Below are positions 38,522 to 41,500 of a stretch of DNA of 64,000 nucleotides, piece after piece; position 1 is the stretch's first letter; the number at the start of each line of letters is the position of its first letter. Where the stretch lies: NCBI RefSeq assembly GCF_035084215.1, contig NC_090351.1, positions 32,302,001 to 32,366,000 on the forward strand, read 5' to 3'. The stretch is from Heptranchias perlo. Lineage: Eukaryota. The notes under the pieces were generated by a model. That model ran no database searches. It was not told where the DNA came from and worked only from the letters and a program-made list of their open reading frames with translations. The translations under genes were made by a program, and so were the position numbers.

Positions 38522-41500
38522 GTAGGAAATCATCTGATTTTTGGCTAAGTTTTGGAGAATACATTTCTTTGATGAAAAAGTTAATGAAATATCTTCCTTG
38601 TGTGCGTTTGGAGCCCCCACAGCTGCAACTGCAAGAAAAAGAGGGCTGGTGTCCAGCAACTCCCTGTCATGGGTCAGACTTGGATGTGGTAGTGAATGTT
38701 GATAAGCACCTGTGGAACCATATTCCAGTAAAGAGTCAACATCTTTAGGAAAGGAGAGGAGCGGGGAAAAGTGACAAAGAAAAAGGATTCTGTAGTTACA
38801 TTTTTAACTTCATTACCTAAGGTTAAGAGATAGAAAGAATAATTTGTCAGCAAGGAACATTAAAAGTTGATGAAATTTCAAACTTACTTCTTATCTTTAC
38901 AGAGTGCCCTTGATTAAGGGTAAACCTGTCCGTAAAGTTCTTCAGGAGAAGGGACTTCTTGAGGACTTCCTCAAGAATCATCCATATGATCCCTGTTCCA
39001 AATTTGAAGGACCCTCCCAATCCCTGGGATCAACTGAACCATTGATTAACTTCCTGGATGTAAGTAATCTGTGAGTTTTGTAAACAAAAGTCGGAAAATA
39101 TTAATATATTTATATTAAACTTACATTGATTGCAGCTATCGCCTATAATTTGTATTCTGCTCAGAGCTAGGTATTATTGAAAGGTAAAAATTCATTAGCA
39201 GATAGTTTGTGCTGATATAATTTAAATATAAGACAGCATGGTCAAAACGCTCAACATCATCTCAACCATGAAATACATTATCAGTATAATACATAGAAAT
39301 AGAGTGATTTCTTCTTCTTACTCATTATCTCTCTTCAATTTAAATGGCCTGTAGACTTCTGATTCTGTACCACGTGATTTCAAAAGCAGTGATAGGGGGA
39401 TTTACTATTACTGATGGATACAGAGGAATATTAACCTAATATCACATGATGTGGAGATGCCGGTGATGGACTGGGGTTGACAATTGTAAACAATTTTACA
39501 ACACCAAGTTATAGTCCAGCAATTTTATTTTAAATTCACAAGCTTTCGGAGGCTTCCTCCTTCGTCAGGTGAACGATGTCTGACGAAGGAGGAAGCCTCC
39601 GAAAGCTTGTGAATTTAAAATAAAATTGCTGGACTATAACTTGGTGTTGTAATATCACATGGGTATATTCCCACTTGATACATTGTGGACATTTTGTTTT
39701 TGCTGACAGTTGTCGTACTATGGAGCAATCAGCATTGGGAATCCACCACAGAGCTTCACCGTCATCTTTGATACCGGCTCATCCAATCTTTGGGTTCCAT
39801 CAATTTACTGTTCCCAACGACCATGCAGTAAGTAAATTTTACCCTGCTGTTAAACAAGCTTATGCTCTTGACTTTCCTAATCGTTAGAGGGCTATTGCTA
39901 ATCCCAACCGATAGTTAAGCAGTAAACTGAACAAAGTCAACAATCAACAATGAAGACACATTCTCCATAATCCTGTGTCTGGTTGAAGTTTAAGGTTAAA
40001 TCAGATTTAGGTTTAAGCTTAAATTCACTGAGTAGGCTAACAAGAGGACAGCTGACCGTACCTGGCCCAACATGTAGTATCTTCCTTCACACAGACACAT
40101 ATACACTCACAAACCATACTCTGACACACTCACACACATATACACTTCCACAAAGCCAGCCCCCCACCCCAACACACCCACCACCCCCCACACACACACA
40201 CAAACACGTGCACGCGCACACACACACGCACACACACATTTTATTTCAGGCTCCCTTAAAAAAAATCCATGGAAGTTCCTGATGCTCTTCATGAACCTGG
40301 CTCTCCCTCCAAGAAAATGGCAACCAGTAATACACTTATGAGGCTACAGAAAATTGGATGGGATGCTTAGTAACAAAAATAAATTATTTCTTGAATGTGA
40401 CAATTAGATTATTTTTTGGCACAAATATTTGAACCAGCATTGGATTAAATGCTGAAACCTTTATAATAATTTGATGAAATGGATGTTTCTTTGCAGTGGA
40501 CCATCACCGATTCAACCCAAAAAAGTCCTCAACATATCAGTCAAATGACCAGTCCTTATCTATTCAGTATGGCACAGGCAGCATGACTGGTATACTGGGA
40601 TATGACACTGTCAGAGTAAGTAGACTGTGATCCTCATCAAGTAAATCAAATCCCGTAACAGTGATAATTGCTTTCCAAAAGTTACAGGTTCAAGTCAAAG
40701 ATACAAAGATTTTGGAATCAAACATAATGAGTTGGATCAGTTCAAAAGCCAGACAGTTGAGTGGATGTGTAATGATGATGTAGCAGAGGGTATCGCGAGC
40801 TGCAAGTTGATGATTTGAAATAAAAGATTTATTTATAAAATGTATAAAATATAAATATAAAATGTAAGATCGACTTTCATAAATTTATTGACAGAACTCC
40901 TTTTTGTTGGAGCATCATAGAAATTTCATGAAAATACTCCCTTGATCTAACCATTCAGTTCAACTCAGACCTTTACGCTTATTTGTGTTGTATGTGGGAT
41001 ATGACAGCCTTTGCTCAGTGGTAGCACTGAGTCAGCAGATCGTGGATTCAAGCCCACTTGAGCACATCATCCAGACTGAGAGTGATGTACTGTTGGAGGT
41101 ATCATCTTTCGGATGAGACGAAAGTTCTCAGGATGGATGTAAATGATCCCAAGGTACTATTCAAAGAAACGCAGGAGAGCTCTCCCACTGTCCTGGCCAA
41201 CATTTATCCCTCAACCATCACTACCAAAAAAAAGTATAATTGGTCATCTATCTCATTGCTGTAATTGCTTGGCTGTGAACTGTTTTGGGACATCCTAAGG
41301 TGCTATATAAATGCAAATTTGTTCTCTTTCATTAAATTCTGATTTTAGATACAAAGAGAAAAATAAAAGTACGAGAATAATATTTAACAGATAGTGTGGA
41401 ATCACCTTAAAAAATTAAATTTAAGAAAGCATGATTTAAACAGATGAATAAAAGCGAATGTTACTAATGTTCTCCTGATTTTTATCCTGATTATATCCAC

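What the first reader, a model, noticed from the sequence alone, without database searches (positions are those of the whole stretch)
39437..39661. Young intronic insertion: perfect 73-bp hairpin carrying two back-to-back minimal hammerhead ribozyme cores
Seen: a 213-bp insert flanked by a 12-bp direct repeat (taatatcacatg), absent from the matching site of copy 1 and ending 48 nt upstream of the exon with the first catalytic Asp. Its arms (39496-39568, 39580-39652) are exact reverse complements. The - strand reads uucac-CUGACGA-a-ggagg(aag)ccucc-GAAA-gc-UU-gugaa. The + strand, i.e. the pre-mRNA, carries the same core from 39580 but lacks the adjacent stem I strand. Known: Penelope-like retroelements carry minimal type I hammerheads with a short palindrome instead of stem III, proposed to cleave as dimers, and often leave inverted terminal fragments. 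Inference: this is a tiny, recently mobile ribozyme-bearing element. In the pepsinogen pre-mRNA it would fold into long dsRNA that masks the core and could be edited by ADAR or affect exon 3 splicing.
Basis: partly seen in the sequence, partly recalled or inferred. Interest (0 to 1): 0.75.

Follow-up and report, generated by a model that had tools for sequence, protein, structure and literature searches.

The report
Folded-back Penelope retroelement remnant in shark
A 213-base hairpin-forming insertion in an intron of a shark pepsin gene consists of two head-to-head end pieces of a very abundant repeat that carries a hammerhead ribozyme motif, and is likely an ordinary dead-on-arrival scar of a Penelope-like jumping gene whose ribozyme is predicted to be locked shut.

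Summary
In detail: 12-nt direct repeat, exact 73-nt arms, empty site in gene copy 1, and a complete minimal type I hammerhead on the minus strand only. The gene is a pepsin A-like gene; the searched exon-5 peptide is 100% identical to Heptranchias perlo proteins. The insert is two 3'-end fragments of one abundant repeat joined head to head, one carrying an extra ~47-51-nt tail. One DNA run laid 16,940 contigs on the stretch, and 206 end at that tail with unrelated flanks. Hammerhead, inverted truncated copy, one-sided tail and short TSD match the published Penelope-like element (PLE) insertion pattern. No RT/GIY-YIG partner could be linked here. Each transcript holds only one core, buried in a 73-bp duplex, so cleavage here is unlikely; no splicing effect was seen in limited contig data. 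'Young' is relative only. Both target ends share 3-4 nt with the repeat, which fits priming from both strands. The scan noted the same pattern before in other genomes (e1-7789271, e1-7788964). Verdict: new member of a known kind; interest 0.2.

The parts
39437..39448 (.). Left target-site repeat (TAATATCACATG); its last 4 nt (39445-39448) also match the repeat family's own 3' end
   Evidence: table 7: 60, 93 and 53 contigs with unrelated flanks end before 39445, 39446 and 39447
39445..39579 (-). Long arm: 5'-truncated 3' end of the repeat family (sense strand is minus), 131-135 nt including hammerhead and tail
39449..39495 (-). Tail present at this end only (47 nt; 51 nt with the shared CATG), A/C-rich on the sense strand
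   Evidence: compared with the 30-40 bp PLE tail
39535..39573 (-). Complete minimal type I hammerhead motif: stem I 5' 39573-39569, CUGACGA 39568-39562, extra A 39561, stem II 39560-39548 (5 bp, 3-nt loop), GAAA 39547-39544, GC-UU 39543-39540, predicted cut 39540/39539, stem I 3' 39539-39535
   Evidence: no variant reaching 4% of depth between 39536 and 39573 in 4 of 4 runs, apart from single-contig indels at 39551 and 39556
39569..39579 (.). 11-nt hairpin loop = 5' end of the long arm; head-to-head junction at 39579/39580
   Evidence: one search shows other contigs running through 39576-39579, so the loop is likely family sequence
39580..39652 (+). Short inverted arm: starts at C3 of the core, lacks the stem I 5' strand and the tail; last 3 nt (TAA) shared with the right repeat
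39650..39661 (.). Right target-site repeat
19908..19919 (.). Empty site in pepsin gene copy 1
58320..58544 (.). Identical copy of the whole insertion in gene copy 3, carried by the 18-kb duplication
38903..39059 (+). Host exon 2 of pepsin A-like gene copy 2 (in frame with exon 1, ATG at 38466)
   Evidence: X5 record 9 covers exactly this range with 0 differences
39710..39827 (+). Host exon 3 (first catalytic DTG motif); acceptor 48 nt downstream of the insert, candidate branch A at 39678

Best explanation
The insert is two head-to-head 3'-end fragments of an abundant hammerhead-bearing shark repeat, likely left as a dead-on-arrival product of one Penelope-like retrotransposition event, with a ribozyme that is predicted to be masked and to have no role in the pepsin gene. 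Shown: the anatomy, the empty site, the multi-copy family, and 3-4 nt shared between each target end and the repeat. Inferred route (about 55% of the weight, against 35% for fold-back copying and 10% other): the RT/GIY-YIG protein of a full-length partner nicked both strands of an AT-rich site a few to 12 nt apart, leaving 3' overhangs. The top-strand end (...CATG) paired with the RNA at the outer start site and primed a ~131-nt cDNA. The bottom-strand end (...TTA) paired at an inner start site ~48 nt further in and primed a ~70-nt cDNA. Both stopped at the 5' edge of the hammerhead on uncut RNA, were joined, and gap filling made the direct repeat. The later duplication copied it into gene copy 3. 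In either direction of transcription the complement is made before the core, so the core would be captured in a 73-bp duplex and removed with the intron.
For: Anatomy. Family: 16,940 contigs laid in DNA run X1; summed depth 3.5-5.8 million over the arm against 83 over the flank (not a copy number); 206 listed contigs end at 39445-39447 with unrelated flanks (agreement 0.36-0.38). Conserved motif: 7 variant places at 4% or more lie in the arm (39484-39535), none in 39536-39573. Loose ends of related copies show double-sided stem II changes (GGAGC/GCUCC in X9; GGGG/CCCC in X5 and X9). Published PLE pattern: inverted pLTR next to the direct one, 31-bp tail at one end, 8-10 bp TSD (PMC3846280); inverted 5'-truncated copy and 30-40 bp tail often at one end only (PMC8557442); min-HHR with extra base after A9, G10.1-C11.1 and palindromic 15.2-16.2, dual motifs 100-700 bp apart on opposite strands, inactive as monomer (PMC4209133). 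The Anolis Poseidon protein nicks and extends both strands, starts at two internal sites that bracket the tail, is predicted to be a dimer and uses uncut RNA (PMC11167929). Both arms here run through the predicted cut site. Masking: P(stem II) about 1e-18 and P(C3 unpaired) 0.003 (plus) and 0.014 (minus).
Against: No RT/GIY-YIG ORF was linked to this family (no genome; searches gave nothing), so PLE membership is by structure only. The tail here (47-51 nt) is longer than the 30-40 bp described, though two X1 contigs with long unique flanks start at 39480 and 39483 (35-38 nt from the end). Stem II is 5 bp, shorter than the 7-8 bp of Schistosoma min-HHRs. Frangieh et al. report initiation at a site not homologous to the cut DNA, whereas 3-4 nt match here, and this is one locus. 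The two truncation points lie only 11 nt apart, which fold-back copying explains more simply, and Arkhipova et al. 2013 favour self-priming. Cleavage, editing and splicing were not measured.
Confidence: 0.78

Rival explanations
1. Same PLE origin, but the short arm arose by fold-back: the first cDNA stalled just past the hammerhead, looped back on itself, was copied for ~73 nt and was joined to the other target end through the 3-nt match.
For: Arms are identical over 73 of 73 nt and meet across an 11-nt loop whose ends can form G-T wobbles (the predicted fold closes one). Arkhipova et al. 2013 read such junction palindromes as self-priming.
Against: It does not explain why one end lacks a tail of fairly fixed length across PLE families, which the two in vitro start sites do. 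The loop has no Watson-Crick self-priming pair.
Confidence: 0.35
2. The ~135-nt hammerhead-plus-tail sequence is a non-autonomous mini-element (SINE-like or retrozyme-like) with its own transcript, moved in trans by PLE proteins, so the 5' ends are the RNA's true end rather than truncations.
For: Summed depth falls from 3.9 to 0.58 million past 39575, and 63 and 21 X1 contigs leave the sequence at 39572 and 39573. Retrozymes are reported to be non-autonomous PLE derivatives (bioRxiv 2026.07.22.740005).
Against: Those loose ends share several further letters (agreement 0.43-0.45, a common start), so they may be subfamily sequence that goes on upstream. No tandem unit is present, which retrozymes require.
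Confidence: 0.2
3. The hairpin affects the host gene: the 73-bp duplex 26 nt upstream of the candidate branch point is edited by ADAR or alters exon 3 inclusion in copies 2 and 3.
For: Very stable duplex with 20 and 25 adenosines in the arms. Predicted unpairedness around the branch point is 0.29 against 0.53 in copy 1. Family-wide, A>G at 39532 is 2.6% and 4.3% of depth in RNA-guess runs X5 and X6 against 0.36% in DNA run X1.
Against: Acceptor, pyrimidine tract and candidate branch A are unchanged and mean unpairedness of the last 48 nt is equal (0.41 against 0.40). X5 record 9 has exon 2 bounded at both splice sites. The A>G excess is one site, not locus-specific, and other variants also shift between DNA and RNA runs (39519: 61% in X1, 16% and 24% in X5 and X6). 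Editing of an intron hairpin would be common and need not matter.
Confidence: 0.12
4. A MITE or fold-back DNA transposon, or a sequencing or assembly fold-back artefact.
For: Long perfect inverted repeat with a direct repeat on each side; the junctions were not seen in independent reads.
Against: The element's two ends are not inverted copies of each other (47-nt tail on one side). It carries a conserved hammerhead motif. The sequence returns to the flank in the original orientation with a duplicated target, which a read fold-back would not give.
Confidence: 0.03

Closest known systems
Endonuclease-positive Penelope-like element insertions: direct pLTR, adjacent inverted 5'-truncated pLTR, one-sided tail, short TSD (Pen2a_Av, PMC3846280; general scheme PMC8557442 Fig. 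2 legend; PMC8969392)
   Same: Head-to-head inverted truncated copy, tail at one end only, short TSD in AT-rich DNA, hammerhead within the repeat.
   Different: Extreme truncation: no ORF sequence at all, about 200 nt in total. Tail 47-51 nt against 30-40. TSD 5-12 nt against 8-10. Partner ORF not found here.
Minimal type I hammerheads of metazoan PLEs (Cervera and de la Pena 2014, PMC4209133)
   Same: CUGANGA and GAAA boxes, extra base before stem II, G10.1-C11.1, palindromic G15.2-C16.2, 5-bp stem I, no real stem III; opposite-strand pairs already reported.
   Different: Stem II 5 bp rather than 7-8; cores only 11 nt apart. No shark example in the parts read; one supplementary file could not be searched.
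Poseidon element of Anolis carolinensis, PAc (Frangieh et al. 2024, PMC11167929)
   Same: Hammerhead upstream of an A/C-rich end; two 3' ends separated by a tail; uncut RNA copied; outer end about 95 nt past the cut site here against 85-92 nt there (start sites +111 to +118, cut at +26).
   Different: PAc's ORF starts inside the hammerhead; here no sense frame is open from the hammerhead through the tail and the only ATG is the last three bases. PAc initiation was reported without homology to the target.
Animal non-LTR retrozymes (bioRxiv 10.64898/2026.07.22.740005)
   Same: Short, non-coding, type I hammerhead, PLE-related.
   Different: Retrozymes are head-to-tail tandem units with a hammerhead in each; this is one head-to-head pair with a TSD.

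Membership tests
Penelope-like element (EN+) | Full-length copy encodes telomerase-like RT plus GIY-YIG endonuclease | not testable with these tools
   No genome held. Pattern scans found 1 metagenome locus with only a 20-28 nt match and 0 viral loci. Peptide search found nothing at E<=10.
Penelope-like element (EN+) | Hammerhead motif in the terminal repeat | tested here: met
   descriptor; 0 hits in 60 of 60 simulations
Penelope-like element (EN+) | Inverted 5'-truncated copy adjacent at the 5' end (head to head) | tested here: met
Penelope-like element (EN+) | 30-40 bp tail at one end only | tested here: inconclusive
   One-sided tail present but 47-51 nt; two X1 contigs with long flanks start 35-38 nt from the outer end (records 3 and 4)
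Penelope-like element (EN+) | Short TSD in AT-rich target | tested here: met
   12-nt repeat, 9 of 12 A/T, empty site in copy 1; 5-12 nt after allowing for shared bases
Penelope-like element (EN+) | Interspersed copies with a shared 3' end | tested here: met
   206 listed X1 contigs end at 39445-39447 with unrelated flanks
Minimal type I hammerhead ribozyme | CUGANGA and GAAA core, stems I and II, NUH cut site | tested here: met
   Minus strand 39573-39535, triplet CUU; NUH rule from PMC3884650 passages. The plus-strand copy lacks stem I.
Minimal type I hammerhead ribozyme | Extra base between A9 and 10.1, G10.1-C11.1, palindromic 15.2-16.2 | tested here: met
   Sequence against the list in PMC4209133
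Minimal type I hammerhead ribozyme | Core conserved and stems covarying across the family | tested here: inconclusive
   No variant at 4% or more in 39536-39573, and two related variants with double-sided stem II changes in loose ends; laid contigs are biased to close copies and no alignment could be built
Minimal type I hammerhead ribozyme | Self-cleavage (as dimer or with protein help) | not testable with these tools
   Needs an in vitro assay; predicted masked in this locus
Non-LTR retrozyme | At least two head-to-tail units, each with a complete hammerhead | tested here: not met
   One complete motif per insertion, arms head to head; definition
MITE / fold-back DNA transposon | Terminal inverted repeats at both ends (definition recalled) | tested here: not met
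   Left end has a 47-nt tail with no counterpart on the right

The most novel reading that the evidence does not exclude
This insertion is a clean fossil of two-headed target-primed reverse transcription: a Penelope protein dimer primes from both 3' overhangs of one staggered cut, each guided by 3-4 nt of pairing at one of two RNA start sites, and both cDNAs stall at the folded hammerhead. A shark genome full of near-identical copies would then let the open question of how PLE inverted ends and tails form be settled by counting junctions.
Probability: 0.4. Interest if true: 0.45.

Novelty: new member of a known kind. Interest (0 to 1): 0.2.

Why it matters
As a single locus it matters little: it is one of very many copies of a repeat, in an arrangement described for Penelope-like elements since at least 2013. 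Its value is as a tidy example, with an empty paralogous site, for the unresolved mechanism of PLE insertion (two-strand priming or fold-back). It also marks a shark family rich enough to test that mechanism statistically. A function in pepsin gene expression would raise the interest, but nothing here points to one.

Tried and rejected
Whole-genome BLAST was not possible (no genome held). Rfam: 0 matches at gathering score over the window; 12 matches at E<=10 over 39400-39720, all below gathering, none a hammerhead, the best being generic hairpin fits to miRNA models, rejected. A 20-nt pattern gave 1 metagenome locus (L001; best match to the insert 24 of 28 nt, treated as chance) and 0 viral loci. 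The sense frame ending at the terminal ATG found 1 candidate and no protein at E<=10. Pfam scan of 34 of the 128 listed stop-to-stop frames: 4 RVT_1 matches, no GIY-YIG; the 3 translated look like ordinary LINE RT (motif recalled). Cofolding two monomers gave a strand-swapped duplex that says nothing on the catalytic dimer. No listed holder run is on record as RNA; X5-X8 are guesses. X5 and X6 have no cover over 39072-39431: a blank, not evidence. The X1 flank contig stops exactly at 39448 and has 6 differences from the window; I considered this as a sign of filled/empty polymorphism and dropped it, because the contig may be a collapse of several paralogs. X9 (another organism label; 22 contigs, two listed ones identical over 70 and 82 nt) could be a relative or mixed material and was not used for dating. 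Only the left arm and left flank were laid, so the central and right junctions and exon 3 were not examined in reads. Dating from arm identity was rejected: 0 of 73 allows 4.0%, about 29 million generations at 7e-10 per base per generation (PMC10587355 abstract, another shark). Supplement searches: 0 hits in 2 files of PMC4209133 with file 1 not searchable; 0 hits in 3 files of PMC11167929. A look-up of earlier scan notes by sequence and by place returned nothing.

Full report
Observation. The sequence is as described. TAATATCACATG occurs at 39437-39448 and 39650-39661, 213 nt apart; 39496-39568 and 39580-39652 are exact reverse complements around an 11-nt loop. Gene copy 1 has a single repeat at 19908-19919 and no insert. 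An identical insert at 58320-58544 lies inside an 18-kb duplication in which copies 2 and 3 show 0 differences over 34,000-41,999, so there was one insertion event. These two are the only perfect inverted repeats of 14 nt or more with a gap up to 60 nt in the window. The fold has z = -21, with 0 of 200 shuffles as stable. A minimal-hammerhead descriptor hits the minus strand at 39568 and 58451 only, with no plus-strand hit and 0 hits in 60 simulated 64-kb sequences. Rfam has no match at gathering score.

Setting. The exon-5 peptide is 100% identical to two Heptranchias perlo pepsin A-like records among 32 hits. tblastn finds matches for all nine expected exons in copies 1 and 2. Exons 1-3 of copy 2 join in frame (exon 1 from 38466, exon 2 38903-39059, exon 3 39710-39827). 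The insert sits in intron 2, 48 nt before the exon 3 acceptor.

Anatomy. Read on the hammerhead strand, the insert is two 3'-end pieces of one sequence joined at their 5' ends, with 3' ends pointing outwards. The long piece (minus strand, 39579 to 39449) has 11 nt upstream of the core, the whole motif and a 47-nt A/C-rich tail. The short piece (plus strand, 39580-39652) starts at C3 and stops before the tail. Because the cores are on opposite strands, each transcript has only one, and its complement is transcribed first. In the full context stem II has a pairing probability near 1e-18 and C3 is unpaired with probability 0.003 (plus) or 0.014 (minus). Isolated, the minus-strand motif folds with stems I and II.

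Family. Fourteen runs hold part of 38900-40000. I laid 4 of the 14 on 38880-39579, the left flank and long arm. In DNA run X1, 16,940 contigs were laid: 6,906 at 99% or more, 6,748 at 95-99%, 2,847 at 90-95% and 439 below. Summed depth is 83 over the flank and 3.5-5.8 million over the arm; the tool warns that this is no copy number, so I take only that the family is very abundant. Of the loose ends listed (278 more not shown), 60, 93 and 53 contigs leave the sequence before 39445, 39446 and 39447 with unrelated flanks. The family's outer end therefore includes the CATG that also ends the left direct repeat. At the other end the arms share TAA with the right repeat (5 of 6 nt match). The TSD is thus 5-12 nt and both target ends have 3-4 nt in common with the repeat. 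Seven arm positions vary in 4% or more of depth in at least one run (39484, 39495, 39519, 39523, 39531, 39532, 39535); none lies in 39536-39573, apart from single-contig indels. Loose ends show related copies with stem II GGAGC/GCUCC (X9) and GGGG/CCCC (X5, X9), changes on both sides of a pair. One X1 contig has an opposite-strand joint (39483/39572), and one X9 contig turns at 39573 into a sense-strand hammerhead, so other head-to-head copies exist. Short-read contigs cannot count them.

Mechanism. The pattern matches what is published for endonuclease-positive PLEs: an inverted 5'-truncated pLTR beside the direct one, a 31-bp tail at one end and 8-10 bp TSDs (PMC3846280; passages and Discussion), and a 30-40 bp tail often at one end only (PMC8557442; passages; also PMC8969392 passages). 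Cervera and de la Pena (PMC4209133; parts 1-2 of 4) define the minimal hammerhead features seen here, report opposite-strand pairs and thousands of solo motifs from truncated PLEs, and find no activity for a monomer and low activity for dimers. Frangieh et al. (PMC11167929; parts 1-2 of 4) show that an Anolis Poseidon protein cuts AT-rich DNA, extends both strands, starts at two internal sites bracketing the tail, and inserts uncut RNA. I commit to the reading that both 3' overhangs of a staggered cut primed cDNA, one at each start site, helped by the short matches, and that both copies stopped at the hammerhead's 5' edge and were joined. These steps are inferred. Fold-back copying of the first cDNA is a close rival: it explains the 11-nt distance between truncation points, and Arkhipova et al. 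prefer self-priming. I weigh them about 55 to 35. That both arms run through the predicted cut site shows the template was not cut there.

Against this reading. No RT/GIY-YIG partner was linked: no genome is held, and pattern and peptide searches failed. The tail is longer than the published range. Target microhomology was reported absent in vitro, and here it rests on one locus. The locus junctions were not seen in independent data.

Host effect. The last 48 nt of intron 2, with the candidate branch A at -32, are identical in filled and empty copies. Predicted unpairedness is equal over the 48 nt (0.41, 0.40) but lower near the branch point (0.29, 0.53). The best donor-like site in the insert (39569, 5 of 7 consensus positions) lies in the hairpin loop next to the duplex. 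In X5, a run only guessed to be RNA, a 302-nt contig matches exon 2 exactly from 38903 to 39059 with other letters on both sides, as a spliced transcript would; it may come from an allele or paralog without the insert. A>G at 39532 is 2.6% and 4.3% in X5 and X6 against 0.36% in X1. This is one family-wide site and other variants shift as much, so it is a hint at most.

Age. The insert postdates the split of copies 1 and 2 (8.6% divergence over the left intron 2 flank, 4.3% in the last 200 nt, 1.7% from the repeat to the end of exon 3) and predates the copy 2/3 duplication or conversion. Identical arms alone allow up to 4.0% divergence, which is no useful bound at the shark mutation rate of 7e-10 per base per generation (PMC10587355, abstract only).

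Novelty. The structure and the motif are known kinds. I saw no description of this shark family in the listings of four searches (Penelope + hammerhead, 25 of 45 listed; Penelope + shark + retrotransposon, 15 of 15; hammerhead ribozyme + shark, 15 of 22; Heptranchias perlo, 12 of 60; listings only unless named above). Repbase and Dfam were not available, supplementary file 1 of PMC4209133 could not be searched, and the supplements of the retrozyme preprint (part 1 of 5 and passages read; one chondrichthyan sampled) were not seen; any of these may already hold it. PMC6155905 and PMC3884650 were read as passages only. Two earlier scan notes describe the same fold-back PLE fragments in other genomes, called shark or shark-type there; they are unchecked AI notes that came after my reading was stated and are not counted as support.

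Verdict. A real feature, a new member of a known kind, interest 0.2. The most novel reading left open is that it records two-headed priming with short target pairing at both ends (probability 0.4, interest 0.45).

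Noticed in passing
window 26934-45117 vs 45790-64000: Pepsin gene copies 2 and 3 have 0 differences over 34,000-41,999 and 4 over 32,000-45,000, but 2-5% over 27,000-31,000: very recent duplication, gene conversion or a haplotype false duplication.
   Followed up: partly
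window 39060-39076: Copies 2/3 have 11 extra nt at the exon 2 donor relative to copy 1, giving a second GTGAGT at 39071; X6 record 17 follows the window to 39071 and then leaves it.
   Followed up: no
window 487-5667 (-) and 8993-10661 (+): Rearranged pepsinogen pieces: exons 1-3 on the minus strand (3484, 2270, 606), exons 5-6 upstream of them (5667, 5002) and degenerate last exons on the plus strand; likely pseudogene fragments or an inversion.
   Followed up: no
P0005, P0006 vs window 38466-46047: The public H. perlo models (203 and 338 aa) lack exons 1-2 although these are present and in frame in copies 2/3, and they read on past the exon 7 end.
   Followed up: partly
window 15296-16282 (-), 30304-30615 (+), 36320-36619 (+): Broken RVT_1 fragments; the three frames translated (two at 15296-16282, one at 36320) look like ordinary LINE reverse transcriptases, not PLE (motif recalled).
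   Followed up: partly
window 41490-41540 and 41934-41984: A 51-nt inverted pair (96%) about 400 nt apart in intron 4 of copies 2/3, next to where the alignment with copy 1 breaks.
   Followed up: no
loose ends behind 39570: The same non-window sequence follows the hammerhead's 5' side in X5 and X9 (270 nt long in X9); it could be upstream element sequence or one shared locus.
   Followed up: no
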